DNA from: a bacterium
GTDB taxonomy: Bacteria; SZUA-182; DTGQ01
DNA length: 64,000 nt
Assembly: GCA_040752695.1 (NCBI GenBank)
Contig: JBFMGO010000009.1
Coordinates: 9,789 to 73,788, forward strand
Reading direction: 5' to 3'
This document shows positions 174-59,898 of this stretch, in pieces. The position numbers and the translations under genes are program-made. Within the stretch, counting starts at the first letter, position 1, and each line of letters opens with the position of its first letter. Under the pieces are notes generated by a model. The model saw only the letters and a program-made list of their open reading frames with translations. It was not told the origin of the DNA and did not search any database.

Positions 174-3100
174 ATGAGGAAACTTTGGGTGCAAGGGGTA
201 ATTGGGGGGTTATTTTTCCTGCTTCATTTCACAACTCTCAACTTCATGGGTTTTAGGTTCAGCTCCTATTGCTTTGCCGAGACTAATGTTGGCGGCCCCG
301 TAAGGGGGAATGTTACCTGGAGCCTGAATAAAAGCCCCTATATTGTGAAAAGCTCCATTTCGGTTGTGTCGGGTGCTACCTTGACTATAGAGCCAGGGGT
401 GGAAGTGCGGCTTCAGGAAGGCAAGGCCGTCCAGGTAGATGGAACTCTGATAGCCAGAGGGACAGTGGATGCGAAGATTGTCTTTACGACATATCAAAAA
501 AGTCCCTTGGTCAGATGGGGTTACATTCTATTTACGGATAGTAGTGTTGATGCTACAGTTGATGGGGAAAATTACACGGGAGGATCGATCCTGGAGCATT
601 GCCTTGTGGAATATGCCAATGGTGGGGATAGACAGGGTGCTGTAATATGCGAAAAAGCTTCGCCACTTTTCAACTATTGCGAGATCAGGAATAATACAAT
701 CTCAGGGATGAGGATAACTGATAGTTCTAATTTAGTAACCAATTGTAACATAAATAATAACATCTCAGCTTCCTCTGGAGCAGGAATTAATGCAAGTGGT
801 AATAGTACGCTGACTATCATCTCAAGTACAATTACTAACAATGCTTCGGGAGGAACATCGGGAGGAGGAGGAATCTGTTTTACATCACCTGGTATCCTGA
901 CCATCATTTCAAGTACAATTACGAATAACTCTGCAGCTCCAACGCCAGGCAGTGGAAACAATAATTTTTGGGGAGGGGGAATAGCTGCGAATAGTGGTGT
1001 AATTAATATATCTTCCAGCACAGTGGCGGGAAATACCGCGAAAAGGTTCGGAGGAGGAATTCGGGCAAGTGGTTCATCCATAACTGTTTCCAATTGCAAA
1101 ATAGTGAATAATTCTGCTGAAGGATCTGGCGGCGGAATTGCCATGTCGGTGCCTAACGTGACGATAACATCAAGTACTCTATCCAGTAATGTCAGTCATG
1201 GTGCTGGTGGTGGCATTTTTGGTGAATATTGCGGGTCAACGAATATTTCTTATTGCACCATTTACGATAACAAGGCCACCAGCAGGGGAGGAGGCATTGA
1301 TGTAAGAGGCGCTAGTAGTCATAATATTTCTCATAATTTGTTTATGGATAACTCTAGCACGAATCACGGTGCTTTTATTTCGGACGAAAATAGCGCCTCC
1401 TTAAAGCTTACCAATAACACTTTCTTTAGTAATAAGAGCGGACTCTCAGGTATATACCTTAAAGGGACTGCTTACACCATCAGTAACAACAATATCTACG
1501 ATAACCCAACCCAATACGATATTTACTGTGACAATCCCTCTGCATCCCCGGTGCTTAATGCCACCAATAACTACTGGGGCACAGAAGATGAATTCGAAAT
1601 CACCGAGCGTATCTATGACTGGTATGACGACAGCAGCAAAGGCAAGGTGGAATACTATCCCTTCCTGACTGCACCATCCCCTGATGCCCCTCTCCCTGCT
1701 TATTATTTAGACAATGACCAGGATGGCTATGGTGATTCCAGTAAGCCAATGCAAACCTTGACAGCTACCCAGGGCTATGTAGATAATCCCAATGATTGCA
1801 ATGATAATGATGCTACTATCAATCCCGCTGCTCAGGAAGTCTGTGATAACATGGATAATGACTGCGATGATAAGATAGATGAGGATCTTACCCAAACGTG
1901 TCCTGATGGCGAGGGGAAAGCCAGTTGCCAGAACGGTCAGTGGGTGGGTTGTTGTGTTCCAACGCCCGAAACCTGCGACAGCAAGGATAATGACTGTGAT
2001 AGCAAGATAGACGAAGACCTGACCCAGACCTGCTCCACTGCCTGCGGTCAAGGCATAGAAACCTGCCAGAACGGGAAATGGACGGGGTGTACTGCACCAC
2101 AGCCACAAACAGAGACTTGCGATGGGAAAGATAATGATTGCGACAATCAGATAGATGAGGAAGTAAAGAGTACCTATTATGCAGATAATGACAAAGATAC
2201 CTATGGCAATCCCTCTCAAAGCATTCAAGCGTGCTCTGCACCTTCCGGCTATGTTGTAGATAAAACTGATTGTAATGATACAGATAACCGCATTCACCCT
2301 GGAGCACCTGAAATCCCCTGCAATGACAAAGACGATGACTGTGTAGGAGGAGATGATTGCAGTCACATAGGAGAGTGTGTAGAAGATAATTCGGGGACAA
2401 TAGATATCGTAGGCACTCAAGAAAGGGTCGGAGGCGAAATTCAAATCCCTATAAGAATTCAATCTGCACCTGGTGAAGTTAATTCTATCGGTTTTGAAGT
2501 GGCGTATGATCCGAGCATTTTGGAATACACAGGCTTTGAGCAAAAGGATTTAGTCGCTTCTTTTGATATGCTTAATATCAACCCCTCTGGTTCTGGCAGG
2601 TTAAAAGTGGCCGGGTTTTCAGCCACAGGAGGTATTGTACAGGGAGCAAGTGGTGATTTGATCCACTTAAAATTCAAGGTAAAAAGCGGTCAAGAAAATG
2701 AATGCTATCCTTTGCAACTGGAGAATTTAAAAGATCACATAACCAATTTTTCTCATTCAAGTGGATGTTTTTGTATCCATAGCTGTAATGGAGATCTTAA
2801 TAATGATGGAGAAATTACTCCACTTGATGCCCTCATCGCCTTTAAATGCTACCTGGGCTTGTTGGACTCTTGCCCTGATTATGCTGATGTAAATCAGGAC
2901 GGCGAGATAACTCCGCTCGATGCTCTTTGTTTGTTTCAAGAATATCTGGGGCAACCATCCTGTTTAGATAAACAGATATGTACTGATCATGATGGAGATG
3001 GTTTTGCCGTTGAAGGTGGGAAATGTGGTCCAATAGATTGCAACGATAGTGATTCAGCTACTTACCCAGGAGCTAAGGAAACGTGTGTAGATGGACAAGA

Positions 3101-4037
3101 TCAGGATTGCGATGGATCAGATCTTGTATGTCCACCTGAAGGAGAACTATTATCACAACTTTCTTTAGGATCCTCTCCTTATGAGTGGAAGGATAAGAAG
3201 TCCGAGTGGAATAAATATCTTGATAACTTATGGAAGAACTACTTTGATAACTTACCTGATACAAAAAGTGAAAAATTTAAGAAGATGGAACTGGATGCTA
3301 TATGCAAACTAATCAAACGAATCCAAGGAGATCTTGATAGTATAGAAATGGCTGAAGATGTGTACGACGGCCTTCTTACCACTACACGTGAGGAAACTGA
3401 TAAAGATTATTTTTACCCTTTATGGATAGATGTAGTAGGCTGGGATTCTACTGAAAATTCTATTAAAAATTGGTATGATCTGATATATGGTGCGAATAGT
3501 TGGGATAGTTATTGTGCAACTTATTGTGCAAGTACCCCACAGTGTTGCGAGAAAGCCCGAGATTGGTTCGCACGAAATGTTGTTTATGAAAAATTCTGGC
3601 GGGATTATCTTGGTCTGTTTTCTGATGGTATATTGGCCGTCAGCTCTCTAAAAGACCTAATCGAAAGAGCATCAGAATCAGATCCAAAATTCAAAGAATG
3701 GTGTGGATTAAAAATGTGTCAATACCCAGAAGATTACTATATAATGGAATGCTCAGGAACATGTTCTGAAGCCAATAGTTGGGAGCAGTGTGGACCAATG
3801 GGCTGTAAATTGGAGTGGGGAGCAAGTTGTGCAAGGGTTTACTATAACTGTATAGACGAAGTTGTCAGGAAAGACGGTGATGGCGGAGTTGGAGGGATAG
3901 GCTCAAAGCCAAATTTAGATTCTGTCTGTGATAAATATATGAAAGGTGCTCTATCACGTCTTCTAGAAGCTAAAGGACTAGGACCCTGGGATGGGGGGCT
4001 TACGTATACTGGACCTCCAGTTTACCTTAGGGAGTAA
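174..4037 (+). CDS. Large secreted multidomain surface protein: N-terminal right-handed parallel beta-helix repeats, Cys/Asp-rich 'DNDCD' repeats (MopE-like), cohesin domain, two dockerin repeats, Cys-rich C-terminal domain
   Basis: 1287-aa ORF with RBS GGAAGGAG before the ATG and a hydrophobic N-terminus. Repeats 'NNxISxxxSGxGGGI' are typical of pectate-lyase/NosD-like beta-helices. Tandem 'CDxKDNDCDxxIDEDLTQTC' repeats. 'IQIPIRIQSAPGEVNSIGFEVAYDPSILEYTGFE' is cohesin-like. 'DLNNDGEITPLDAL' and 'DVNQDGEITPLDAL' form a canonical dockerin calcium-binding repeat pair. Confidence 0.6.
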   Translation: MRKLWVQGVIGGLFFLLHFTTLNFMGFRFSSYCFAETNVGGPVRGNVTWSLNKSPYIVKSSISVVSGATLTIEPGVEVRLQEGKAVQVDGTLIARGTVDAKIVFTTYQKSPLVRWGYILFTDSSVDATVDGENYTGGSILEHCLVEYANGGDRQGAVICEKASPLFNYCEIRNNTISGMRITDSSNLVTNCNINNNISASSGAGINASGNSTLTIISSTITNNASGGTSGGGGICFTSPGILTIISSTITNNSAAPTPGSGNNNFWGGGIAANSGVINISSSTVAGNTAKRFGGGIRASGSSITVSNCKIVNNSAEGSGGGIAMSVPNVTITSSTLSSNVSHGAGGGIFGEYCGSTNISYCTIYDNKATSRGGGIDVRGASSHNISHNLFMDNSSTNHGAFISDENSASLKLTNNTFFSNKSGLSGIYLKGTAYTISNNNIYDNPTQYDIYCDNPSASPVLNATNNYWGTEDEFEITERIYDWYDDSSKGKVEYYPFLTAPSPDAPLPAYYLDNDQDGYGDSSKPMQTLTATQGYVDNPNDCNDNDATINPAAQEVCDNMDNDCDDKIDEDLTQTCPDGEGKASCQNGQWVGCCVPTPETCDSKDNDCDSKIDEDLTQTCSTACGQGIETCQNGKWTGCTAPQPQTETCDGKDNDCDNQIDEEVKSTYYADNDKDTYGNPSQSIQACSAPSGYVVDKTDCNDTDNRIHPGAPEIPCNDKDDDCVGGDDCSHIGECVEDNSGTIDIVGTQERVGGEIQIPIRIQSAPGEVNSIGFEVAYDPSILEYTGFEQKDLVASFDMLNINPSGSGRLKVAGFSATGGIVQGASGDLIHLKFKVKSGQENECYPLQLENLKDHITNFSHSSGCFCIHSCNGDLNNDGEITPLDALIAFKCYLGLLDSCPDYADVNQDGEITPLDALCLFQEYLGQPSCLDKQICTDHDGDGFAVEGGKCGPIDCNDSDSATYPGAKETCVDGQDQDCDGSDLVCPPEGELLSQLSLGSSPYEWKDKKSEWNKYLDNLWKNYFDNLPDTKSEKFKKMELDAICKLIKRIQGDLDSIEMAEDVYDGLLTTTREETDKDYFYPLWIDVVGWDSTENSIKNWYDLIYGANSWDSYCATYCASTPQCCEKARDWFARNVVYEKFWRDYLGLFSDGILAVSSLKDLIERASESDPKFKEWCGLKMCQYPEDYYIMECSGTCSEANSWEQCGPMGCKLEWGASCARVYYNCIDEVVRKDGDGGVGGIGSKPNLDSVCDKYMKGALSRLLEAKGLGPWDGGLTYTGPPVYLRE

Positions 4038-15718: not shown

Positions 15719-15822
15719 GAGGTTCAAAAGAGAGGGTAAGGGGAATCGAACCTCCTACGGCCCTTGCACAGGCCGACCAGCGGATTTGAAGTCCGTGGGG
15801 CACACCAGTACCATTACCCTCG
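15719..15822 (-). tRNA. selC: tRNA-Sec (anticodon UCA), selC; ends approximate
   Basis: Minus-strand sequence contains 'GGACUUCAAAUCC' (anticodon arm core identical to E. coli selC), a long variable arm 'CGGCC-UGUGCAAG-GGCCG', the T-loop 'GGUUCGAUUCC' and an 8-bp acceptor stem 'GAGGGUAA/UUACCCUC'. Sits immediately upstream of selB. Not folded with software. Confidence 0.72.
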
Positions 15823-15959
15823 ATTATGTGAGTACAAATAATGCAACTTTATATGGTTAAGCGAGATGATATCTCGGTAACTTACCATGGCCAGGCAAAA
15901 TAAGGATATATCCTCGAAGTACATCGGAGAGCGAAAGATGACGGCAATCCCCGGATTGC

Positions 15960-16200
<241 letters not shown>

Positions 16201-16218
16201 GAATCGGTCATAGAGCGC

Positions 16219-16270
16219 TGGTTTGGATAGAGCTTGGTTGAATAGAGTTTTGTTGGATAGAGCTGGACTG
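16219..16270. repeat. Three imperfect direct repeats 'ttGGATAGAGCt' spaced about 16 nt apart
   Basis: 'ggtttggatagagcttggttgaatagagttttgttggatagagctgg'. Could be a regulator binding array; non-coding region. Confidence 0.5.
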
Positions 16271-17263
16271 AATTCAGAGATTAAATACAGTTGAGTTTCA
16301 GGGGTGTAATGTGGTTTTTGCTGCAAAGGCAGAAATTTAAGGAAAGACAGAAATGATAGAAATGAGGAAGGCATAGTGGTTCCTTACCATTGCCCCAGCC
16401 AACGGCCAGAGTTGACGTATTATAATCAATACTGCCCGATAAATCCGTGTAAATGAGTCTTTTTTATAGGATACATAATCATCCTTCTCCAAGAAGACAT
16501 ACCTGCCATCCAAAAGCAGAATTAATGGTAACAATGTAATTACCATAGCAGTCAAATATGGATTCTTTTTTATCACAAGCTGAATAATATGTCAATCATG
16601 AAATTTTCGCTCATTGGATATCGAGTTATCATTGAAAGTTGTGTATGAGAGGTTAGGTGGTTCGATATCCCGCACATCTTCAATGTGAGGCGGAAACTCG
16701 GATGATGATTCCCTGTTGTTTTTCTGATAATTCCCTGCTGTTCACCTTCAGCACCACGCATGTTCAGAATCTACACTCATTGTGCCAGGGGTATCCTCTT
16801 CATCACCATTCCCCCGTGAGCCCTTCCCCCCTGTGACCTTCTCCTCATAAACCCTCCCCTTTCCCTCAAGCTATTCTATCCACCCGTGTATTATTCCCCG
16901 TATGCCATTTCCTTATGTGCCATTCCTCCAGTGAACCATTTCCCTTCCCCGGTTTTCCCGCGAGCATGAAAATTGCTATCTCATCGTGTAAGCAACTAAG
17001 AGGCCATCCCAAAACCTCCGGCAGACGATAAACCAGTTACTCCAAATGAGGTTTTGGGAAAGGTTCTAAGTACAAGCCGCGTGAATTACACGACCAGTGT
17101 CATGAGTACTGTCATGAGTACCGCTGATACCAAATTATGTTGGGGGGGCTCTTTGCCCCACCTAATTCAGCGGAAAACCTCATCAAAGAGGCTTTGCATA
17201 CACAACCGAGTGCTCTTGTCAAGCCTCAATTGATGGGTAAAATAATGACCGCTGGGACCTCCC

Positions 17264-37992: not shown

Positions 37993-38589
37993 ATGGATAA
38001 GAACAGGAAAGCTTTGGTGCTCAGTCTCCTCACTATTTTCGTTTTCATGCTGGTTTCTTTCCTCGCACCTTCGGCTGATGCACACGGTAGAGGCCGGGGG
38101 GGCGCTTGCGGCATGGGCGGCATGGCCTGCATGGGCGGGCCTGATGGACCTGAAGGTACTGGCCCGCACGGTGAAGGTCCCGGACTCAACTACGGAAAAT
38201 ACCTTGATTTATCAACCGAGCAGCGCCAGAAGATGCATGATGTCAAGTTTGGGTTTATGAAAAAAACCCTTGACTTAAGAAGCGAATTAGGGAAAAAGAG
38301 CCTCGAGCGAAAGGCGCTTTTGGAGAGTGAAGCGGTTGATTGGAAAAAGGTAGACCAGACAACCGATGAAATCGCCAGGATCAAAGCAAATCTGGAAAAG
38401 GAAAATATGCGGCAGAAGACTGAAATGAAAAAGATCCTCACGAAAGAACAGCTCGAAAAACTCAATAGTATGAATTGTCCCAAGGGCCAGGCAGGCGGAT
38501 TAGGGTGCGGGATCGGAAAAGGACCGGGAGCCGGCCTAGGTATGGGCAAAGGACTTGGATGCGGTGCAGGCAAGGGGCTGGGGTTGTAA
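37993..38589 (+). CDS. Periplasmic CpxP/Spy-like protein with Gly/Met/Cys/His-rich terminal segments
   Basis: Signal peptide, 'LSTEQRQKM' and 'LTKEQLEKL' LTxxQ motifs. Flanks 'HGRGRGGACGMGGMACMGGPDGPEG' and 'GLGCGIGKGPGAGLGMGKGLGCGAGKGLGL' look like soft-metal-binding low-complexity regions. Confidence 0.55.
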   Translation: MDKNRKALVLSLLTIFVFMLVSFLAPSADAHGRGRGGACGMGGMACMGGPDGPEGTGPHGEGPGLNYGKYLDLSTEQRQKMHDVKFGFMKKTLDLRSELGKKSLERKALLESEAVDWKKVDQTTDEIARIKANLEKENMRQKTEMKKILTKEQLEKLNSMNCPKGQAGGLGCGIGKGPGAGLGMGKGLGCGAGKGLGL

Positions 38590-50541: not shown

Positions 50542-51204
50542 CTAAAATTCAACCATGAACCCGATGGAAAGAAGTAATCCCTTAGGATCGAGATACCCGG
50601 TCCCCTCCTCACCCTCGGGCAATTCCTCATCAGCATAGTCCGCATTGAAAAGCTTCAGATATCTGGCCTCAAATACCAGATAGCTGTTATTGACTCCATA
50701 TTTTTGATCGAAGTTGAAAGCATCGTCAGCAGCCAGAGCATCAAGCAAAAGGCGAATCCCTGCCACTGCATGATACCCGGCCTCGTTCAGATAGGTGGGC
50801 TGAATGTCTTCAGCCAGTTCTAATCTGCCTGTTCTCCCGTAGACATAGTCAATTCCTCCGCCCAGATAGGGAACGAAAAACTGGTCCTGACTATAACGCA
50901 TGGCATAGGTCATGCTCAGCCCCACGGGGATCAGATAGACGGACCATTCACTGGCCGTAACATGTACATAATCCGCACTGATTCCAAGCTCAATATTTTT
51001 CATAACTTCCTTATTCAGCCTCAATCCTCCAAAGGCGGAATAGCCCTTACCGAAGGCCGTACTCCACTTATCGTTATCCGAAGGCCGGTAAAACCCGCCT
51101 CTTAGTTCCAAGGAGGTTCCCTTCCTGATGGATTCAGCCCTGGCCACTGTCGGTGCACTGAAAAGGAGAATGAATGCCACGAAAGCCACTACCTTCTTAC
51201 TCAT
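50542..51204 (-). CDS. Outer-membrane beta-barrel-like protein (OmpW/OmpA-like small barrel) with its own RBS and signal peptide; in frame with the upstream giant ORF
   Basis: Perfect SD 'AAGGAG' 6 nt before ATG 51204. 'MSKKVVAFVAFILLFSAPTVARA' is a signal peptide. Alternating amphipathic strands, C-terminal '...SIGFMVEF' (terminal Phe beta-signal). Confidence 0.5.
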   Translation of the reverse strand: MSKKVVAFVAFILLFSAPTVARAESIRKGTSLELRGGFYRPSDNDKWSTAFGKGYSAFGGLRLNKEVMKNIELGISADYVHVTASEWSVYLIPVGLSMTYAMRYSQDQFFVPYLGGGIDYVYGRTGRLELAEDIQPTYLNEAGYHAVAGIRLLLDALAADDAFNFDQKYGVNNSYLVFEARYLKLFNADYADEELPEGEEGTGYLDPKGLLLSIGFMVEF

Positions 51205-54200
51205 AGATATCTCCTTAATATTCAAAGGAAATGCAATTTCAATACCCAATAGGCTCAAGAAGCCGATGCCGACAGCCCAGATAATCCACCCAGGAAAAGT
51301 ACTCCGGTGGCTCACAAGCATATGCTGGTCGAAAAGAGGCTTGCCAAGGCTGCTGACAAAACAATCCTTACTGCCGGGAAATGCAAACCGGTTTTCCGGA
51401 TTGAATGGCGACTTCTCAGATTCACCGCTTGCGCCATCGCCATAACCATAGCGAGTTAACCCCTGCGGAGTGGCAAACCAGATGTCATTTTTCATATTTC
51501 CATCGCTGCCCTTCTCACCAAGACTTTGTATCGCTATGGCCTGAATAGTATTATCAGCCAGGCCATCGGTTGTAGTGAACAATTTCCAGGAACTCCCATC
51601 GTAACGGCTGGCACCTCCACCGGTAATTCTTACAGGCTTAGCGGTTATTGGGTCCATCTCCACTTTGGGCCTTGTCCCAATCCAGACATTCGAACCATCG
51701 CCGGCTAGAGCACTTACGTTCATGCTGCCCAATTTTACGGCTGAATCAGCCGGACTGAAGTGTCCGATCCATTTTTTATCCTGAAGATCAAACCGGTAAA
51801 GCCCTCCCTCACTCCCTGCCGTATCTGCCGGATTGGTAGAGAATCCCAAAACCCAAAGAAATCCGGGATCACTCCCCCAGATTTTTACGATCAAATCTGT
51901 CTTTAGTTTATTGCTTTCATCGCCTTCATTGTTGGAAGCGGTAGTGTAGTATGTCCATTCCTTTGGCTCAACCTTAAACTGGGCCACTCCCGTGTAGGCC
52001 GGTATCCTATCCTGCCCTGTGCCGATAAAAGAATAAGTAGAAACCCACAAATCTCCATTGCTGTCCACACCCATTGCAAGGAAGAACTCACCCGGCAGTC
52101 CTCCACCATCATGAGAAGAGGTGTATTCCTTGTCAAAGACCGTCCACGTATTCTTTGAAAGATCGTATTGAATAAGATCTACACTGCTGGTGGCGTTAGG
52201 ATCGACCTCAGATCCTGCCTGGCTGCCAGGGAGTTGGCTCTGGCTTCCCTGACTGGCATGTTGGCGGATGATCCACAAGAGCCGGTGTACTTCATCAAAG
52301 GCCATGTCCAAGATATTATCATTACTAAGGATCCCCTTAGTCGAATCTGTATCATACTTTTGCCAGCTACTGCCATTATACTTACTCAACCCCTGCGGTG
52401 TTCCTACATATAGGTTCTTATATTTAGCATCAACGGCCAGGGCTGTGATGGAAACATTGGGATCCTTGACAGATTTAATGACTGACCACTTGGATTGAGC
52501 ATTATCGAATTTACTCAATCCCAAAGAAGTCCCTATCCAGAGAATATTATCCTGAACTGCAAGGGAAGTAATATTATTGCTGGCCAACTTGTATTTGGGT
52601 GTCTTGTAGGTTGTCCAGACAGGTGTAGAAATATCAGAAGGAGTATTAGGATCTGAAGTATTAGGGTCTGAACTACCACCTTCGCTGCTGACCGTAAAGG
52701 TACTGTCCATGGTCGGAGCTCCGACAGCATCGCCTCCGATCGGGTGTTCAAACACAAACCGGTAGCGATAAGTACCTTCCTGCTCTCCTTTGAAGCTGTA
52801 GGAATAGATTTTCCCATCCGCACAGTTCGTATCTAATGGATCTTCCTCGTCCATGGCTTTCTTCTCGGTGGATTGATAATATCCATCCTGATTAGCATCG
52901 ATCCAGACCTGGAAAACGTTCGGCTCCGGATCTTGCACGCCGTCTGTGTCCGCAGGGTTATACTTATAGAGAATCCGGAATTCAAAAAATGTGTCTACCT
53001 TACCCTTTGTGGGATAAACACCTGCAGTTTTATAGTTCGTTTCTCCTGTAAAGATCAACTGAGGAGGCACCGGATCTGAACCGCCGCTCCCGCTGCTGAC
53101 CATAATCGCGTTATCCATGGTCGGGGCTCCGGCAGCCACCCCTCCGACTGGGTGTTCAAACACAAACCGGTAGCGGTGAGTGCCTTCTTGCTCTCCTGTA
53201 AAACTGAAGAAATAGATTTTCCCATCCGCATAGTTTGTATCCTCGCTGTCTGCCTCCTCCAGATTCTTTTTCTCATCAGCCTGATATTGCCCATCGTCGT
53301 TCAAATCAATCCACATCTGAGCAGTCTTGGGCGGTACGTCAGTTGTTGTCGTATCAGGAGGGCGATACATATAAAGAACCCGGAATTCAAAAGTCCTGCC
53401 TACCTTACCGGTTGCGGGATAAACCGTTGCACTTTGATAGTTGGTTTCTCCTGTATAGAAGAGCTGTGGAGGATTTATCTGCAGGATATTTGACAGATTG
53501 GCGCTCCCGGCAGCAAGAGAAGAATCTGCATCCTTAAAAGAGAAGCGGTAATGGATCAGGCCATTCACCTGTCCCTCCGGGATGGTCAATGATATGCTTT
53601 TAGTATACATTTTCCCGTCCGCGGTATTAGGATCACTGCTGTCCGGGTCCATGTCGTATTTTTCCTGCTCGCTATATACCCCATCCCCATTTATATCAAC
53701 CCATACCTGGCAGTCTGCCGGGTTCTGGCCGCCCAGGTCAAGATAATTAATCTTAAAGGTGTAGGTTTTTCCATTCCCTCCAACCCCTGGATTGACACCA
53801 TAAAAGAAACCGCTATCTTCTACCCAGTTCAGGGAAGACGTAAGAGGAATACCATAAATATCAAAATCATAGGTCACAGCGTATGGATAGGAACGATAAT
53901 CCATCCAGACCACCTGCCTGAAGTTTGCATTCCCTGCAATTGCCGCCGCATCCTGCACTCCCTGAGCGGTACAGATTTCCCATCCCGGGTTGTCGGCATT
54001 CCTGCCGATCAGTTTCCCATCTGCACTCACGCGCGCCCACCGGATGTCGGTGTCATAGCCGACCGTAGATTCTCCCTTGATACTCCTGGTGAAAGACTGC
54101 GAAGTCCAGACCACCAGGTAGCTGTTACTGGTTGTGTCCCACATAATCCGGGGATTGAACTGGTTCCCTTTGGCCCTGCAGATGGGAAATGGCTGTCCGG

Positions 54201-57200
54201 CCATTGCACCATTGGCTCCTACCAGAACCCCGTAGATGTCTTTTCCAAAAGGAGTGGCACCGGGACCTTTACGCTCCCAGACAACCAAAAACTTACTCCC
54301 GTCCGAGGCTATGGCCGGGTTCTCCTGGGCATAATTGGGATCTATCCAGATTGGGAGGCCGCTGGCAATATTTTGAAGTTTCGGGAATGATATCGTACTA
54401 TACTCTTCACTGCCCATGACATGCCCATTCAGATCCACAGGATTACCATACAGGTGAGAAACCACATCCCCATCTGTTTCCGGACGATAATCCTGCCAGA
54501 CAACCAGGTAACTCTGCCCTCCAAAGGCCACTGCCGGATTGATCTGATCTTTTCCATAATTCTCGTCATAGATTATAAAATTCTCATTCGAACCGGGACT
54601 TTCACTGACTGTTGCACCGCTGGAAGAATTGTAGGTAACAATGGTCCCATGGATATTCTTTCCCGTAACATCAAGAGCTATACCATCCTCCCAGACCACA
54701 AAGAAAGTGTTGTCTGGCCCTGCGGCGACAGCCGGATGGTTCTGATTGCTGGTTGCAGAGCCGGATATCGAGGATTTATAGGTAGCAATTGGTATATCCT
54801 GCATGCTGGAATCACCGGTTTTCACAATCTGGCCATAAATATCGGTGTTCTGATAACCGGGGCTGTCGGCTGTTGCATTTACCTCTCCATTTCGCAGATC
54901 CTCCCAGACCACCAGATAGATGTTATCTTGCCGGCTGGCGGCTACCTTCGGTTTACATTGAGATTGCCCGTTTTTTCCTATCTGGACTTCTGTGCCTGTT
55001 TTCTTCCCGTTCTCATCCAGAAAGCGCCCGTATATGGTAGAGCCCTGATAGAGCTCCGGAACCTTCTGATCTACGGCCTCAGCATCGCGCAGATCTTCCC
55101 ACACCACGAGCCCCCCTTGAGAGGTAGAAGCAAGATCAGGGTACCATTGACGTTTTGGGCCCGTGTAGATACAGGTTTCCGAGATATTCGTAATTGCCAG
55201 GTAATAAACCACATTCGGTCCACCCTGTGCCGCGTTGTAGCCATCATCAAAATAAAACCGGTAGGCAATCAACCCTATCCGATTTACCTGGATCTTCTTT
55301 TTAAACCGGTAGACGGCTCCATCGCTAAAACTTTCGCTTCCGTCCTTCACCATATCGAATTTTTCACTGTCTGAAAAGACCGCATCACCATTTATGTCTA
55401 TCCATACCTGGTACTTTTTGGGAGCTTCGTTGCCTGCATCCTGATACTTGACCTTGAAGGTGAACTCCGTCTCGTCCTTGCTGCTGTCAGGATCGACCCC
55501 GCCATGAAGATAGTTTCCTTCCCCCAGGAAGGAAAGCACAGGCACTTCACCATGCGGGAGTATTTTTACCGGATGATCCCTGGTGGGTTCCCCTTCGGCC
55601 GTGTTATATTCGTCCCGGAAATAAAAGCGGTAATTGAGTATACAACTATTGGGATCATCTGGATCACCATCAAACAAAATCTTGATCTTCTTTTGGTAAG
55701 TAGTACTACCTGTTTTTTCCGGGCTGAAGATTTCGTTTCCTTCATTGACTCCATTGTGGTTAAGGTCAACCACCAAGCGCCCGTCGATCGGTTCATCTCC
55801 TCCACCTTCTCCCTTGACATAATTCACCTGAAAGGTAAATTCAGAGCCACCTTCTCCCTGATTCGGACTGACTCCTTCGGTTTTTCCACTCGGCCATTCC
55901 AGGCGAGGCGAGGCGGGCAAAGTATAGACAACTCCGGCAATGTCAATATCCTGACTCTGGGCTGACTCTTTCCCCATCCAGGTAATTAAAGTGTTCCTGC
56001 CCGATTCATTGCCGCTAAGAGAGGCCATCTGAGCATACTTGCCTGGATCGCTTAAGGTCAGGGGCTTTGGCACTCCACTCTGAAGATCCAGATCCAAAAG
56101 ATCCCCTTCCAGAGAGATCCTGGCCCCATACACCGTACCTCGATAATCCCAGACTGCGAGGTAGTTGTTTTTAATGGAAGCCACAGCCGGCATCGTACTC
56201 TGCACCATTCCCTCATACGGAATGAGCCTGGTGATAGGAATTTCTGTAAGTCCATAGGGAGTTAACAATACCCGGCCATCAGAGGAAATGCGGGCACCAC
56301 AAAGGAAATTACCGATTTGAGCTCCTGTGCTGTCTTGTGTATCCTTATACCTTCCATCCTGCCAGACAATGAAAAAGCCTTGCTGACCAGTCGTAACATC
56401 CGGATATTCCTGAGCCTTCTCCGCCCTGCAGACGGGAAAGCTCTCCTCGATGGAAGCCGTACCGTCGGTCCTCTGTTTGATCAGGGCAGCATAGATATCT
56501 TTCCCTGAAGATGAGTCCCTCTCATCGACCCAGGCCACCAGCCACCCTCTTTCTGTCGAGCCTCCGTCCCCTGTCCTTGAGTAGCCCGTAACCACCGGAT
56601 CTTTCTGGGATGAGGCAGCCGTGCAGATGGCAAGAGCATTGGGATCTAAGATATTGCCATTCGAACCGATTCGAACCCCGTATATGTCTGCACTCGGAAG
56701 ATCAGGCGTAGCCTCGCCGTTATAGTCATACCAGACGATCAGAAACTGCTCGCCGTTCCAGGCAGCCTTGGGGTAGGTCGGTTTTTCCTTGGCCTTTTTA
56801 ATGCCCGATAGAGGAGATGATGTTATTCCCCCTCCTCCGGAAAGTGACACGAGAGAGGCATAAATGGCTGATGTATTATCCGTGTCTTGATCATGCCAGG
56901 TGACCAGATACTGGTTTTTATCCGGATTAAGGGCCACCCTGGGTTTACACTGGATACTTCCCTGGGTGGAGGCAATTTTAGATGAGCTTCCCTTGGGGAC
57001 TCCGTTGGGATCGAGGCGAACGCCGTAAATACCCTGATCCGGACTCTGAGTGCTATACCAGACAGCCAGATACTCGGACTTATTCTGATTCCATGCTGAG
57101 GCCGGGTAAAACTGCAAACCACTCTCGGTGCAGATATTCAGATAACCTGCTGCCTTAATCTTTGGACAAAAAGTAAAAACCAGAAGGAAAACAGAGACAA

Positions 57201-57237
57201 GAATCAGAAAAAGACAGGTATTTTTTCGCCTACTCAT
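51205..57237 (-). CDS. Giant (about 2000 aa) repeat-rich surface protein: N-terminal about 50-aa 'YGxRxxxxG...VVWxD' repeats, repeated 'WIDxNxDG' calcium-binding-like modules, C-terminal two-component-regulator-propeller (Reg_prop) repeats and a hydrophobic segment. The reading frame continues without a stop into the 50542-51204 ORF
   Basis: Start at 'MSRRKNTCLFLILVSVFLLVFTFCPKIKAAG' (ATG 57237). Four copies of 'VWIDxNGDGxYSxxEK(Y/F)DM'. Propeller repeats 'ILWIGTSLGLSKFD', 'NLYVGTPQGLSKYN'. Then TM-like 'GWIIWAVGIGFLSLLGIEIAF'. Confidence 0.6.
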
Positions 57238-57542
57238 ACAGTTGGCCCCTCTCGTTATCCAAAATGATGAAAGATTAATAACAAAAACGAGGCCAAGCCC
57301 GCTTATAAAAAGAAGACTCAAACCTCGCTCTTTGTCTCATGTTCATATTTACAGCAGGTTATAACCGCGGATCCGTAATCTTAGAGCCCACAGTCACTGA
57401 AACGATTGCCTCGTCTCACGGAATTGATCTTGTACAACAACTGCTCAGCGATAAACCCCTTTCCTTTCCTCGGAGCGTCCTGAAACTACTCGATTATGGT
57501 CCCAAAGTCCGCAATGCACTGAGAATAAAAATGTTTTACATA

Positions 57543-59462
57543 TTAAAATACAGATTTAATGATCCGCCAGAGCCAGGATCTGGCCTGGGTTCCCGATGCA
57601 TTAATAAAACAGCCGCTGCCGCTCAAGTCAACACCACTCCCTGCTACTGATTGACTGTTACTGGTAGAAAAATAAACCTTATATTCTTCTGAAAGTGGAT
57701 TACCTGCAAGGTCCACAGCCGAAGTCTTCATTGATATAATATAGGTCTGGTTTGTTTTCACAGCACTTTGTATGGGCGTAAATTCCATGGTTCTTTTATC
57801 GCTGGACCAGGAAAACGTTCCTTCTATCGTGTTCTGATTATTATCCTTCAGGGTAAAGGCGCTTCTGGTTTTCTCAATCTTCATAGGTTCACTAAAGGTG
57901 ATCCTGATCTTCACGGAAGTGTCCACCCTGGCATGATTGGCGGGATAGCACTCCTGCGCCACCACGTAAGGACTGACCTCATCGCGCATTACCAGACCGT
58001 CGTCCGTACCGATCCAGACTTCCCCCCGGGAATTTATCGCCACGGCTTTGATTCTTTGTGTCGATAACGTATTCGTATCTTCAGCTGCGAAATTTTTCCA
58101 TGTATTTTTTTCCACGTCAAATCGCCCTAACCCGTCCGTAGTGCCTGTCCAGACAATGCCGCTGTCTTGACTGACAGCCAGAGCAGTCACAAAGTTCCCC
58201 GGTATGGAGTTGGGATCCATGGGAGCCGTATCGTCATCATGCGCATAGTGTGTCCATGTACCAGACAACCCGACTCCCGGTTCCAGCTTAAGAAGCCCAT
58301 TGCTCGTACCAATCCATAATCTTCCGTCCGAATCAGCGCTCATATCCATGATATTATAGTTAACATTTCCCAAAGACCTGTTCCGGGCCAAGGGAATTGC
58401 GTAGGAATATTCTTTCCAGGTATTCGCGCCACTGGCCATCTGGTAAACTCCAAAAAAGGTTGTCCCAACCCAGACATTATCTTCATGGTCGACTGTCAGC
58501 GAGGTAATACTATCTGCCGGGAGATCCTGGATCGGAGGATAATTGACGACCTGGTCGCCGCAAAACTCGAAAACAAAACCATCGTTGGTAGCAATCCAGA
58601 TATCGTTCTGGGAATCTGCGGCTATTTTGATGATAGCACTATTCGATCCAAGGTCGAGTGCTTGGGCGGTAATCGTCTGCCAGGCATCATTTTCCCATTT
58701 GGCTAATCTGGGAATGTCTGGCTCGCTCGGTTCGTTCATATCGAGCCCTACCCATACCCGGTCCTGGGAGTCGATCGTTATACAGGGGAAGTCACTGATC
58801 TGATAGGGAAGCATGGGAGTTTTATCCTCGAAAGTGCTGCCATCAAAGCAATAGATACTACTGACATCCTTGGTCACTATCCACAACCGGTCCCGGCTGT
58901 CAACGGCCAGACAGCTCACTTTACCCAAAAGATCACCCTGACTTTGGCTATAGATACTACTCCAATGTTTTCCCTCGGGAGGAGGGGTATTTTGGCCCTC
59001 GGTCGTAAACCTTATCTTCCAGTCGTCGTCACCCGCTTCCCCGCCGGTGCCGTCCATGTCTCCGTCCAGATGGTGCCCGTCCTCGTCCATAGCTGTTGAT
59101 TTAATCTTGATCCAATAGGTCGTTCCGAGCTGCAGATCGAAGGAGGGATCAAAAACCAGGATGTTATTATTGATGTCCATGTTTTCCTCTTCCTTGAGAT
59201 TGTCAAGCTCCGGGTCGGTTCCCTCGGCATAAAAATAGAACGCATCGGTAGTGGAATTAGGATCCATGGGTGCCGTAAAGGTAATGGTAATGACCTTTGA
59301 TACCGGTATATCGGTTTGATTCTTATTGGGATCGGATAAATACACAAAAGGATCGATCCCTAAGGGAGCGGCTCCTTGCGCCAAACCCATCGACCCGGCC
59401 AATTGAACGAGGAATACAACAGCACAACAAACCCAAACGATATATAGAGGTTTATCTTTCAT
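57543..59462 (-). CDS. Secreted protein with Ig-like (Big/SbsA-type) domains flanking two-component-regulator-propeller repeats
   Basis: Start at 'MKDKPLYIVWVCCAVVFLVQLAGSMGLAQG' (RBS GGAGAG). Propeller repeats 'RLWIVTKDVSSIYCFDG', 'DIWIATNDGFVFEF', 'NVWVGTTFFGVYQM', 'RLWIGTSNGLLKLE', 'IVWTGTTDGLGRFD', 'EVWIGTDDGLVMRD'. N- and C-terminal 'ITITFTAPMDPNS' and 'IRITFSEPM' Ig-like strands. Confidence 0.65.
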   Translation of the reverse strand: MKDKPLYIVWVCCAVVFLVQLAGSMGLAQGAAPLGIDPFVYLSDPNKNQTDIPVSKVITITFTAPMDPNSTTDAFYFYAEGTDPELDNLKEEENMDINNNILVFDPSFDLQLGTTYWIKIKSTAMDEDGHHLDGDMDGTGGEAGDDDWKIRFTTEGQNTPPPEGKHWSSIYSQSQGDLLGKVSCLAVDSRDRLWIVTKDVSSIYCFDGSTFEDKTPMLPYQISDFPCITIDSQDRVWVGLDMNEPSEPDIPRLAKWENDAWQTITAQALDLGSNSAIIKIAADSQNDIWIATNDGFVFEFCGDQVVNYPPIQDLPADSITSLTVDHEDNVWVGTTFFGVYQMASGANTWKEYSYAIPLARNRSLGNVNYNIMDMSADSDGRLWIGTSNGLLKLEPGVGLSGTWTHYAHDDDTAPMDPNSIPGNFVTALAVSQDSGIVWTGTTDGLGRFDVEKNTWKNFAAEDTNTLSTQRIKAVAINSRGEVWIGTDDGLVMRDEVSPYVVAQECYPANHARVDTSVKIRITFSEPMKIEKTRSAFTLKDNNQNTIEGTFSWSSDKRTMEFTPIQSAVKTNQTYIISMKTSAVDLAGNPLSEEYKVYFSTSNSQSVAGSGVDLSGSGCFINASGTQARSWLWRIIKSVF

Positions 59463-59898
59463 CCCTACTCTCCTCAAGTTGATTATCATTGATTAATGAT
59501 AATGAAAGATATTCAAAGATATGTAACCTTAGTATTTATTGCATGCGAATTTCCGCGATAAAATACACTCGCCGGGCCATCCGGCTTTCTTTAATTTCAA
59601 ACAATACTTTTCCCTGAATACTCCTAAGTATACATTTAGGCCAAATTTACGCAAGAGCAAGGAACAATAGAAGAGGATTACGAATCATTATAATAGTATA
59701 ATACCTTTGCATTTATAAAGCCAATAAAATAAACCTAAGGAGCAGATGATTTGCCGGGTAACTCATTGAGGGAGGGATCAATCATATAGCATGATAAACC
59801 GTTGCAGGCGACTTCTCCTGACAGTCAATTAATGCCCTTTAAAGCCAACACAGTAGTCCTACGCCGAAATGTACTCCTTTTGGCCTTTTTCCTTTCAT

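What the first reader, a model, noticed from the sequence alone, without database searches (positions are those of the whole stretch)
50542..57321. Giant surface protein and a small outer-membrane barrel ORF share one uninterrupted reading frame
A 2259-codon frame has no stop. The last 221 codons have their own perfect Shine-Dalgarno (AAGGAG-N6-ATG at 51204), a classic Lys-rich signal peptide and an OMP-like body ending in Phe. Immediately before that start the giant protein has a 21-residue hydrophobic helix-like segment. So either (i) a roughly 2000-aa repeat/propeller adhesin is covalently fused to a C-terminal beta-barrel anchor, an autotransporter-like layout with an internal translation start that also yields the free barrel, or (ii) a stop codon was lost, or an assembly error occurred, between two genes. 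Either case is unusual.
Basis: seen in the sequence. Interest (0 to 1): 0.55.

Follow-up and report, generated by a model that had tools for sequence, protein, structure and literature searches.

The report
Surface-protein gene fused to barrel gene
Two neighbouring genes, one for a giant exported protein with a cysteine-containing sorting tail and one for a small outer-membrane barrel, have slipped into a single reading frame here through a one-base change. The same merger recurs across this protein family, so it is a natural variant and neither an autotransporter nor necessarily an error.

Summary
Window 50542-57321(-) is one open frame. The likely start is ATG 57237, giving 2231 aa, identical to GenBank MEW5801162.1. 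AAGGAG-N6-ATG lies at 51204, followed by a signal peptide and a body ending in Phe.

The last 220 aa form a predicted 8-stranded OmpA/OmpX-like barrel, not a 12-stranded autotransporter domain.

In 8 of 9 other orthologous lineages the giant gene and the barrel gene are separate. The giant gene ends 8-19 nt inside the barrel gene in another frame, with a tail of Cys motif ("CFI-box"), transmembrane helix and Arg-rich end. The window carries one extra base just 5' of the ribosome-binding site, which merges the frames.

A second lineage, seen in at least two distinct strains (four contigs or protein records), is fused independently. A Myxococcota pair is fused too. 50 of the 149 best distant barrel relatives are single proteins laid out as ectodomain, Cys sorting motif, helix, basic loop, signal-peptide-like segment, barrel.

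Most likely the fusion is tolerated. The helix and the internal signal peptide would form a membrane hairpin, signal peptidase would release the barrel, and the barrel's own start site is retained.

The closest published parallels are Myxococcus TraA/TraB and the fused MXAN_5598. An indel error in the window cannot be excluded without reads.

The parts
50542..57237 (-). Fused ORF from the likely true start ATG 57237 to the stop at 50542-50544 (2231 codons plus stop). The maximal ORF from TTG 57321 has 2259 codons.
   Evidence: Identical to GenBank MEW5801162.1.
57145..57237 (-). N-terminal Sec-type signal peptide of the giant protein (MSRRKNTCLFLILVSVFLLVFTFCPKIKA|AG).
   Evidence: Hydrophobic window, KD 2.55. 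Conserved in 7 orthologues. The cleavage site is inferred.
56038..57072 (-). First block of six repeats of the type [YFW][LF]xxW ... (D)IYG, propeller-blade-like.
   Evidence: Regex listing. No Pfam match. The fold was not determined.
53938..54918 (-). Second block of five similar repeats (YLVVWEDLR... DIYG).
53509..53709 (-). Best-scoring GEVED domain. Three copies of the QVW[IV]D[IA]N motif were found by regex, starting near giant residues 611, 1178 and 1444.
   Evidence: Pfam PF20009, 55.6 bits against a 24.4 cut-off, 2 stretches. Motif listing.
51448..52560 (-). C-terminal region carrying a Reg_prop repeat (two-component regulator propeller). Only one 23-residue repeat (giant aa 1713-1735) matched; the boundaries of the region are my estimate.
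   Evidence: Pfam PF07494, 39.7 bits against a 20.4 cut-off, best stretch aa 1713-1735.
51343..51375 (-). Cys-containing motif GSKDCFVSSLG (CFI-box-like putative sorting motif), 18 residues before the transmembrane helix.
   Evidence: NCBIfam NF041763: 13.4 bits, below the 15.9 cut-off, in the window. Orthologue L001 scores 17.9, above it. 'CF' is present in all 9 orthologue tails where this stretch was read.
51229..51288 (-). Transmembrane helix WIIWAVGIGFLSLLGIEIAF, the hydrophobic part of the tripartite sorting tail.
   Evidence: Aligned with the terminal helices of the orthologues.
51205..51228 (-). Junction linker PLNIKEIS. It contains the one extra base relative to two-gene orthologues (within 51217-51228). 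It replaces the ancestral Arg-rich tail, which is still readable in the +1 frame as ILRRYL* with TGA overlapping the ATG.
   Evidence: Any single-base deletion at 51217-51223 restores a giant protein ending ..RRYL*.
51211..51216 (-). Shine-Dalgarno sequence AAGGAG of the barrel gene, 6 nt before ATG 51204. It lies in a ~29-nt DNA block conserved in most columns across all 11 loci aligned.
51136..51204 (-). Signal peptide of the barrel (MSKKVVAFVAFILLFSAPTVARA), internal in the fused ORF. Predicted signal peptidase I site ARA|ES.
   Evidence: (helix 2-22).
50545..51135 (-). Mature 8-stranded outer-membrane beta-barrel (197 aa) ending ..GFMVEF.
   Evidence: Pfam OMP_b-brl, 30.8 bits, above 28.7. 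NCBIfam MXAN_2562_fam, E 1.6e-16 but 60.6 bits, below the 100 cut-off. AF2 model with 8 strands, pLDDT 77, pTM 0.73. Foldseek hits to OmpA transmembrane domain, NspA, OprF-N, OmpW and OmpX.
57543..59489 (-). Conserved upstream neighbour: a 648-aa exported Big_5 / Reg_prop protein whose C-terminus also carries a CFI-like motif (GSGCFINASG, 57591-57620) but no full transmembrane helix.
   Evidence: Same neighbour in every locus whose upstream DNA was long enough to show it (L001-L004, L006, L012). The motif did not score with NF041763.

Best explanation
The locus is a conserved two-gene module.
- Gene 1 encodes a ~2000-aa exported repeat/propeller protein. Its C-terminus is a tripartite sorting-type tail: a Cys motif ('CFI-box', ..GCF[IV]SSL..), a transmembrane helix and an Arg-rich cytoplasmic end.
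- Gene 2 encodes a small 8-stranded outer-membrane barrel related to the MXAN_2562 family.
- In most relatives gene 1 stops 8-19 nt inside gene 2 in another frame. The Arg-rich tail is therefore encoded by the barrel's ribosome-binding site and first codons, and the two genes are translationally coupled.

In this window one extra base just 5' of the ribosome-binding site puts gene 1 in the barrel's frame, creating a 2231-aa read-through ORF.

I infer that the fusion changes little.
- The helix runs periplasm to cytoplasm. The short Lys-containing loop (PLNIKEISMSKK) and the barrel's signal peptide, which runs cytoplasm to periplasm, would form a helical hairpin in the inner membrane.
- Signal peptidase I would cut at ARA|ES and release the barrel for insertion into the outer membrane.
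- The retained AAGGAG-N6-ATG would also still allow separate initiation.
- The giant protein would be handled at its Cys motif by whatever machinery serves such tails. By analogy that means lipidation and cleavage by a myxosortase-like protease.

What is shown and what is inferred:
- Shown: the anatomy, the two-gene ancestry, the recurrence of fusions and the predicted barrel fold.
- Inferred: the membrane topology, signal peptidase cleavage, use of the internal start, and the role of the Cys motif.
For: **Two-gene ancestry**
- All 16 barrel homologues found among 5.8 billion proteins are free-standing, 139-226 aa; the shortest three are fragments from contigs under 2 kb.
- In syntenic loci (trmD, rplS, UPF0102, Big_5 protein, giant, barrel, then MoaC with or without TatD) the giant gene ends 16-19 nt inside the barrel gene in the +1 frame in 7 lineages, and 8 nt inside in the +2 frame in one. 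The tails read ..helix..VRRYLWVRR*.
- The DNA alignment places one extra base in the window directly 5' of TAAGGAG.
- Any 1-nt deletion at 51217-51223 restores ..RRYL* with an ATGA overlap.

**Fusion is real elsewhere and recurrent**
- L008, L019 and L020 are fused in frame. L019 and L020 carry the same sequence over the 2.7 kb compared. L008 is 96.7% identical to them in DNA and differs at the junction only by an in-frame 6-nt duplication.
- The fused proteins P0018, P0046 (MCL6582332.1) and P0047 are on record.
- Neighbour-joining trees of both proteins put that lineage next to unfused L001, and the window next to unfused L003/L014. That implies two independent events.
- A third case: the Myxococcota protein P0109 joins a MYXO-CTERM tail to the barrel (..GRRR-MRLAALL..). 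The related pairs L022 and L023 are separate genes whose stop overlaps the barrel ATG.

**Layout is natural**
- 50 of the 149 best representatives found with the barrel profile are 345-990 aa with the barrel at the extreme C-terminus.
- 42 of those 50 have an N-terminal signal-like segment.
- 29 of 50 pass an automatic test for Cys + helix + basic loop + second hydrophobic segment. About a dozen more are of the GCFIATAAYGS type, of which one tested segment (P0072) matches NF041770 CFI-box-CTERM at 109 bits.
- The segment before the barrel looks like a signal peptide with an A-x-A-like site in 48 of 50. This test is loose.

**Cleavage is needed**
- The first beta-strand starts at residue 30, about 6 residues after the predicted cleavage site. 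An uncut hairpin in the inner membrane could not coexist with a barrel in the outer membrane. This step is inference.

**Assembly quality**
- The giant gene is open for 2011 codons. All ten syntenic neighbours have orthologue-like lengths. This argues against an indel-prone assembly.

**Published precedent**
- TraA (MYXO-CTERM) and TraB overlap by 4 bases (PMC3325183).
- MXAN_5598 is an adhesin with an internal MYXO-CTERM followed by an outer-membrane barrel, which its authors propose arose by gene fusion and is processed (PMC11980579).
Against: - No reads are available, so a single-base insertion error at 51217-51228 cannot be excluded. The junction pattern was not found in any other metagenome contig, so the window's fused state rests on one assembly.
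- The window's Cys motif scores below the NF041763 cut-off (13.4 against 15.9 bits). The barrel scores below the MXAN_2562 family cut-off (60.6 against 100 bits).
- No signal-peptide predictor could be run. My A-x-A test is permissive: 79 of 85 free-standing barrels also pass.
- No candidate sorting protease (CPBP/myxosortase, exosortase or rhombosortase) was seen in the window or in the flanks of related loci.
- Nothing here shows that either protein is made or where it ends up.
Confidence: 0.72

Rival explanations
1. The fusion in this window is a sequencing or assembly artefact. One spurious base in the short T/A runs at 51217-51228 merges two genes that in the real genome overlap by ATGA, with the giant protein ending ..RRYL*.
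For: - The +1 frame still reads ILRRYL* with TGA overlapping the ATG. Any single-base deletion at 51217-51223 gives an orthodox tail.
- The nearest relatives L003 and L014 are unfused.
- The window's junction was not found in any other public metagenome contig.
Against: - The 6-kb giant gene and ten neighbouring genes show no frameshift. Indel errors are therefore rare in this assembly, and one would have to fall in a ~12-nt target.
- The RRYL tail is held in place anyway by the ribosome-binding site and the first barrel codons, so its survival says nothing about how recent the change is.
- The same in-frame state is genuine in another lineage, seen in at least two distinct strains, and in many distant relatives.
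Confidence: 0.15
2. The fused polypeptide is the functional form and stays in one piece. The giant protein is permanently tethered to its own barrel, an autotransporter-like or intimin-like anchor, and the barrel helps to export or display it.
For: - Fusions are common in the wider family.
- Two representatives, P0138 and P0174, have the CFI motif about 15 residues before the barrel with no hairpin between them. That hints at physical closeness of the motif and the barrel.
Against: - The barrel is predicted to have 8 strands, like OmpA/OmpX, whose lumen is too narrow for a passenger. No Pfam autotransporter domain is found.
- A transmembrane helix, a basic loop and a canonical signal peptide lie between the passenger and the barrel. 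The first strand starts about 6 residues after the A-x-A site, so an uncut chain cannot span both membranes.
- Eight of nine other orthologous lineages make two separate proteins.
Confidence: 0.07
3. The frame merger is a recent deleterious lesion, the first step of pseudogenisation of the module.
For: It is a frame-changing indel at a gene end and is known from a single assembly.
Against: - Both coding parts are fully intact, with conserved motifs.
- The equivalent fusion has persisted in the L008 lineage through 3.3% DNA divergence, with a frame-preserving indel.
- The equivalent layout is the standard state in many families.
Confidence: 0.05

Closest known systems
Myxococcus xanthus TraA/TraB and the fused MXAN_5598 (PMC3325183; PMC11980579)
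   Same: - A large exported adhesin-like protein ends in a tripartite Cys-containing sorting tail (Cys motif, transmembrane helix, Arg-rich end).
- It is followed at once by a gene for an outer-membrane barrel protein whose ORF overlaps it; traA and traB overlap by 4 bases.
- In MXAN_5598 the two are one ORF with the sorting tag internal. Its authors propose a gene fusion with the N-terminal part still processed.
   Different: - The motif here is CFI-box-like (..DCFVSSLG..) and does not hit the MYXO-CTERM model TIGR03901.
- The barrel is a bare 8-stranded domain without an OmpA peptidoglycan-binding domain.
- The host is an unclassified MAG lineage.
- Homology of this barrel to the TraB or MXAN_5598 barrel was not tested.
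- Sorting by a myxosortase is not shown here.
MXAN_2561 (MYXO-CTERM-anchored protein, NF045522) / MXAN_2562 (outer-membrane beta-barrel, NF040596) families of NCBIfam
   Same: - The window barrel is related to NF040596 (E 1.6e-16).
- In two Myxococcota MAGs, barrels of this kind (one named an MXAN_2562-family protein by NCBI) directly follow ~330-aa proteins with MYXO-CTERM-like tails, the stop overlapping the ATG.
- P0109 is the fused version. Its tail matches TIGR03901 at 25.4 bits, above the 20 cut-off, and NF045522 at E 1.8e-8.
   Different: - The window barrel scores 60.6 bits, below the family cut-off of 100.
- The partner here is a 2000-aa protein unrelated to MXAN_2561.
- I found no paper on either family.
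[quoted passage not shown]
   Same: A signature motif with a conserved Cys, then a hydrophobic helix, then a basic cluster, at the end of a signal-peptide-bearing protein. All three parts are present in the orthologues.
   Different: - In the window the tail is internal, and the Arg cluster is replaced by the Lys-containing start of the barrel's signal peptide.
- The window motif scores below the model cut-off.
- No cognate protease was identified.
- No literature on the CFI-box was found.
Type Va autotransporters
   Same: A large N-terminal passenger with a signal peptide and a C-terminal outer-membrane barrel in one ORF.
   Different: - The barrel has 8 strands, not 12.
- There is no Pfam autotransporter domain and no linker helix.
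- A membrane helix and a second signal peptide intervene.
- The ancestral state is two genes.
Bacterial polyproteins split at an internal signal peptide, e.g. Bradyrhizobium FbcH (cytochrome b-c1). Recalled from memory; I could not retrieve a paper.
   Same: One ORF yields two envelope proteins. The downstream part keeps its own signal peptide, which follows a transmembrane segment and is cut by signal peptidase.
   Different: The proteins and cell compartment are unrelated. Cleavage here is only inferred.

Membership tests
Type Va autotransporter | C-terminal 12-stranded translocator barrel (Pfam Autotransporter, PF03797). | tested here: not met
   - No such Pfam hit at E<=0.1.
- The AF2 model has 8 strands.
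- The best Foldseek matches are 8-stranded OmpA-TM, NspA, OprF-N, OmpW and OmpX. Autotransporter barrels appear only at E>2e-3 with TM-scores 0.31-0.37 normalised to the query.
Type Va autotransporter | The passenger joins the barrel directly through a linker that runs through the pore, with no intervening membrane anchor or signal peptide. | tested here: not met
   A transmembrane helix (51229-51288), an 8-residue linker and a 23-residue signal peptide lie between them.
Small 8-stranded outer-membrane barrels (Pfam OMP_b-brl, PF13505) | Score above the Pfam gathering threshold. | tested here: met
   30.8 bits against 28.7.
Small 8-stranded outer-membrane barrels (Pfam OMP_b-brl, PF13505) | N-terminal signal peptide, 8 antiparallel strands and a C-terminal aromatic residue. 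| tested here: met
   Helix 2-22 and 8 strands in an AF2 model with pLDDT 77 and pTM 0.73. The terminal F is nearly invariant. These are predictions, not experiments.
NCBIfam NF040596, MXAN_2562 family outer-membrane beta-barrel | Score at or above the curated cut-off of 100 bits. | tested here: not met
   60.6 bits, E 1.6e-16, covering positions 3-183 of 208. It is a relative, not a member by the curated threshold.
NCBIfam NF041763, CFI-box putative sorting motif | Score at or above the curated cut-off of 15.9 bits on the 14-residue motif. | tested here: inconclusive
   Window 13.4, L003 15.0, L008 14.4, L001 17.9. L006, L012 and L014 give no hit. The residues 'CF' are conserved in all 9 tails read.
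Tripartite Cys-type C-terminal sorting signal (as defined in 10.1101/2023.06.07.544157) | [quoted passage not shown] | tested here: met
   Cys at giant residue 1959. The helix at residues 1984-2003 starts 24 residues after the Cys. The same order is seen in all orthologues.
Tripartite Cys-type C-terminal sorting signal (as defined in 10.1101/2023.06.07.544157) | An Arg-rich cluster at the extreme C-terminus of the protein. | tested here: not met
   Met in the 8 unfused orthologous lineages (..VRRYLWVRR* and similar). In the window the tail is internal, and the loop is PLNIKEISMSKK, net charge +2, with no Arg.
Tripartite Cys-type C-terminal sorting signal (as defined in 10.1101/2023.06.07.544157) | A cognate intramembrane sorting protease (CPBP/myxosortase or similar) in the genome. 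| not testable with these tools
   Only 64 kb of the genome is available. None of the polytopic ORFs in the window is a candidate: one is ATP synthase subunit a by Pfam, one a likely Na/H exchanger by synteny with L003/L006, and one is a 186-aa ORF without Pfam hits.
MYXO-CTERM (TIGR03901) | Match to the model at or above 20 bits. | tested here: not met
   No hit at E<=10 for the window tail or for 6 orthologue tails. The distant fused relative P0109 does match, at 25.4 bits.

The most novel reading that the evidence does not exclude
Barrels related to the MXAN_2562 family may be dedicated outer-membrane partners (anchors or escorts) of proteins that carry Cys-type sorting tails: CFI-box, CFI-box-CTERM or MYXO-CTERM. 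Together they would form a widespread, uncharacterised surface-display module whose two parts are encoded adjacent, overlapping or fused, and are made in fixed proportion. The processed Cys end of the cargo would sit in or on its own barrel. The window would then be a snapshot of the two-gene form turning into the one-gene form.
Probability: 0.3. Interest if true: 0.7.

Novelty: new variant of a known kind. Interest (0 to 1): 0.45.

Why it matters
- **Annotation.** A 2231-aa 'GEVED domain-containing protein' is in fact two functional units. Many 345-990-aa 'hypothetical proteins' have the same hidden internal sorting tail plus signal peptide plus barrel.
- **Biology.** The repeated genetic coupling of one barrel family to three kinds of Cys-containing sorting tails points to a functional partnership. 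So far this has been noted only in passing, for TraA/TraB and MXAN_5598 in Myxococcus. The pattern suggests it extends well beyond myxobacteria and gives a concrete, testable handle on how such sorted proteins are held at the outer membrane.
- **Gene evolution.** The locus is a clean natural example of how overlapping, translationally coupled genes merge without loss of function, because a membrane helix followed by a signal peptide forms a self-resolving hairpin.

Tried and rejected
- **Exact look-up of the 2231-aa product among encoding contigs.** Not on record, although the protein is in the protein collection as P0017. The source contig and reads could therefore not be reached.
- **Scan of metagenome contigs for the junction, with a variable gap.** 0 hits. 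There is no independent copy of this population.
- **Second metagenome scan and the genome scan with the barrel profile.** Only 4 loci each. This was enough to find the second fused lineage but not enough for frequency statistics.
- **Autotransporter reading.** Rejected on barrel size, fold and junction anatomy.
- **Lost stop codon.** Rejected. The orthologues' stop lies in another frame inside the barrel gene, and the change is a 1-nt indel.
- **MYXO-CTERM, PEP-CTERM and GlyGly-CTERM membership of the window tail.** No hits.
- **Search for a sorting protease in the window.** None found.
- **Literature on 'CFI-box', 'CFIATAA', MXAN_2562 and Bd0486.** Nothing usable.
- **Search for a citable paper on FbcH-type internal signal peptides.** Failed.
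- **Context of more distant free-standing barrels.** P0049 is not on record and P0052 lies on a 767-nt contig.
- **Not attempted.** An AF2 model of the junction or of motif-barrel docking. The tool returns no contact or PAE data, and the usable alignment would be very shallow.

Full report
**1. The observation**

- Window 50542-57321(-) is a single open frame of 2259 codons.
- The first ATG with a purine-rich ribosome site is at 57237. From there the product is 2231 aa and opens with a signal peptide that is conserved in orthologues. This product is 100% identical to GenBank MEW5801162.1, annotated as one 'GEVED domain-containing protein'.
- AAGGAG (51211-51216), a 6-nt spacer and ATG 51204 are present.
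- The following 220 aa start with MSKKVVAFVAFILLFSAPTVARA|ES and end ..MVEF.
- Eight codons before that ATG lies the 20-residue hydrophobic segment WIIWAVGIGFLSLLGIEIAF.

**2. The barrel**

- The 220-aa part passes Pfam OMP_b-brl at 30.8 bits against a 28.7 cut-off.
- It is related to NCBIfam 'MXAN_2562 family outer membrane beta-barrel' at E 1.6e-16, but at 60.6 bits it falls below the 100-bit cut-off.
- An AlphaFold2 model built on 15 sequences (pLDDT 77, pTM 0.73) has a signal helix and eight strands.
- Its best PDB matches are the 8-stranded OmpA transmembrane domain, NspA, OprF-N, OmpW, OmpX and Ail. Autotransporter barrels appear only far down the list.
- This is a predicted small OmpX-like barrel, not a 12-stranded translocator.

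**3. The giant protein**

- Pfam finds GEVED domains and a Reg_prop propeller repeat.
- The sequence also shows two blocks of propeller-blade-like repeats ([YF]LxVW ... DIYG) and three copies of a GEVED-like QVW[IV]D[IA]N motif.
- Its last 60 residues form a tripartite tail. The Cys motif GSKDCFVSSLG is a weak match to NCBIfam NF041763 'CFI-box putative sorting motif': 13.4 bits in the window, but 17.9 bits, above the 15.9 cut-off, in orthologue L001. An 18-residue spacer and the transmembrane helix follow.
- In the unfused orthologues the protein then ends in an Arg-rich tail.
- This is the architecture of Cys-type C-terminal sorting signals described by Haft (10.1101/2023.06.07.544157). For MYXO-CTERM, cleavage by the myxosortase MrtX has been shown experimentally (PMC11980579).

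**4. Orthologous loci**

- A search of 5.8 billion proteins with the barrel found 16 homologues, all free-standing and 139-226 aa; the shortest three are fragments from contigs under 2 kb.
- Their contigs are syntenic with the window: trmD, rplS, UPF0102, a ~640-aa Big_5 protein, a giant protein of 1830-1952 aa, the barrel, then MoaC with or without TatD.
- I read the junction in ten further loci representing nine lineages.

| Junction state | Loci |
|---|---|
| Giant gene in +1 frame, stop 16-19 nt inside the barrel gene (..VRRYLWVRR*) | L001, L003, L006, L011, L012, L013, L014 |
| Giant gene in +2 frame, stop 8 nt inside the barrel gene | L009 |
| Giant gene in the barrel's frame (fused) | L008, L019 (one lineage), and the window |

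- The Arg-rich tail is thus encoded by the barrel's ribosome-binding site and first codons. This explains a ~29-nt DNA block, TAAGGAGATATCTATGGGTAAGAAGGTAG, that is conserved in most columns.
- Relative to its nearest relatives, the window has one extra base between the helix codons and TAAGGAG.
- Deleting any one base at 51217-51223 gives a giant protein ending ..RRYL*, whose TGA overlaps the barrel ATG.

**5. Is the fusion real?**

- For the window itself I cannot see reads. Its junction is not in the metagenome collection.
- Two arguments favour a true allele.
- First, the assembly shows no other frameshift in the 6-kb giant gene or in ten conserved neighbours.
- Second, the in-frame state is demonstrably genuine elsewhere.
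  - L008 (GenBank MAG HOT.CON.50) and two JGI contigs (L019, L020) are all fused. An ENA contig also carries a fused protein.
  - L019 and L020 have the same sequence over the 2.7 kb compared. L008 is 96.7% identical to them in DNA and differs at the junction only by a 6-nt, frame-preserving duplication. At least two distinct strains are therefore fused.
  - Trees of both proteins place this lineage beside unfused L001, and the window beside unfused L003/L014. The indels lie at different positions. So the two fusions are independent.

**6. The wider family**

- A profile of the barrel, searched against 1.84 billion representatives, gave 742 hits at E<=0.001.
- Of the 149 best that were new, 50 are 345-990 aa with the barrel at the very end.
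- Their sequences show a common plan:
  - an N-terminal signal peptide (42 of 50);
  - beta-helix or fn3 ectodomains;
  - a Cys motif, either GGCFIATAAYGS..LRxFRD or a short G-x-GC[SAF][LI] (a segment of P0072 matches NF041770 'CFI-box-CTERM' at 109 bits);
  - one or more transmembrane helices;
  - a short Arg/Lys loop;
  - a segment that looks like a complete signal peptide with an A-x-A-like end;
  - the barrel.
- One of these, P0109, carries a bona fide MYXO-CTERM (25.4 bits, above the 20 cut-off) and a match to the 'MXAN_2561 family MYXO-CTERM-anchored protein'.
- In two Myxococcota MAGs the same two parts are separate genes. Their tails read ..GGCRAA..helix..RRSRRTR* and ..RRRRNA*, and the stop overlaps the barrel ATG.
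- A paralogous barrel in L016 follows an fn3 protein that ends ..GECFIRA...
- The coupling of this barrel family to Cys-type sorting tails, and its repeated conversion to a single ORF, is therefore a general pattern.

**7. How it most likely works (inferred)**

- The giant protein is exported by its N-terminal signal peptide and held in the inner membrane by the C-terminal helix.
- In the fused allele, the loop PLNIKEISMSKK (net charge +2) stays in the cytoplasm. The barrel's signal peptide re-inserts as the second arm of a hairpin.
- Signal peptidase I cuts at ARA|ES.
- Because the first strand begins about 6 residues after that site, an uncut chain could not reach the outer membrane. The many constitutively fused families, with conserved barrels and terminal Phe, therefore imply that cleavage occurs.
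- The retained ribosome-binding site and ATG also allow separate initiation.
- The giant protein's Cys motif is presumably processed as in MYXO-CTERM proteins, by lipidation and cleavage. This was not tested, and no candidate protease lies in the window.

**8. Comparison with what is known**

- The closest published cases are M. xanthus TraA (MYXO-CTERM) and TraB, whose ORFs overlap by four bases (PMC3325183).
- MXAN_5598 is described as a large adhesin with an internal MYXO-CTERM followed by an outer-membrane barrel and an OmpA domain. [quoted passage not shown]
- The window differs in four ways: the motif type (CFI-box-like, no TIGR03901 hit), a bare 8-stranded barrel, the host lineage, and direct comparative evidence for the fusion event.
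- It is not an autotransporter (see the membership tests).

**9. Verdict**

- The finding is real. It is explained as a frame merger of a conserved, translationally coupled pair made of a sorting-tail protein and a barrel.
- As a single locus it is modest.
- The broader pattern it exposes is more interesting and, as far as I could find, undescribed beyond one remark in the literature: a barrel family tied to three kinds of Cys sorting tails and repeatedly fused through a self-resolving hairpin.
- Remaining doubt: about 15% that the window's extra base is an error.

Noticed in passing
window 57543-59489 (-), motif at 57591-57620: The conserved upstream neighbour is a 648-aa exported Big_5 / Reg_prop protein. 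It also ends with a CFI-like Cys motif (..SGSGCFINASGTQARSWLWRIIKSVF*) but has no full transmembrane helix. The operon therefore holds two Cys-motif proteins and one barrel. The motif did not score with NF041763.
   Followed up: partly
L016:1051-3084 and L016:3181-3825: In another genome a 677-aa fn3 protein ending ..GEDGECFIRAVCPSRVIWNTSSVKSEM* lies 97 nt upstream of a paralogous barrel (P0016, 29-30% identical to the window barrel). The motif scores 13.5 bits with NF041763, and no helix follows it. This is a third genetic arrangement of the same pairing.
   Followed up: partly
P0138 and P0174 (distant barrel relatives): Two ~840-860-aa proteins have ..GEKGGCFI(S/F).. only about 15 residues before the first barrel strand, with no transmembrane hairpin or internal signal peptide. 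This direct fusion might indicate that the CFI motif sits next to the barrel in the mature state.
   Followed up: no
window 51175-51216 and the aligned positions of 10 loci (alignment A2): The ~29-nt block TAAGGAGATATCTATGGGTAAGAAGGTAG is conserved in most columns of the DNA alignment among lineages whose proteins are only ~50-70% identical. This fits triple duty: ribosome-binding site, barrel N-terminus, and the Arg-rich tail of the upstream protein in another frame.
   Followed up: partly
window 174-4037 (+): A 1287-aa exported protein combines a right-handed beta-helix, three MopE-type putative metal-binding motifs, a cohesin domain and a type I dockerin domain. This is an unusual mix for what appears to be a diderm MAG.
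   Followed up: no
window 37993-38589 (+): A 198-aa protein has a Metal_resist (heavy-metal resistance) domain and a Gly-rich repetitive tail (..GLGCGIGKGPGAGLGMGKGLGCGAGKGLGL).
   Followed up: no
window 15814-16374 (-): A 186-aa ORF with at least three hydrophobic segments has no Pfam match. It is the only unassigned polytopic ORF in the window. It was not identified as a CPBP-type protease.
   Followed up: partly
L001/L002:12017-19339: In the closest unfused relative of the L008 lineage, the module is followed by a cluster not present in the window: a radical SAM/SPASM protein, an ScmC/HPr-kinase-like protein, a Peptidase_C25 protein and an NTP_transf_5 protein. It looks like a peptide-maturation locus.
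   Followed up: no
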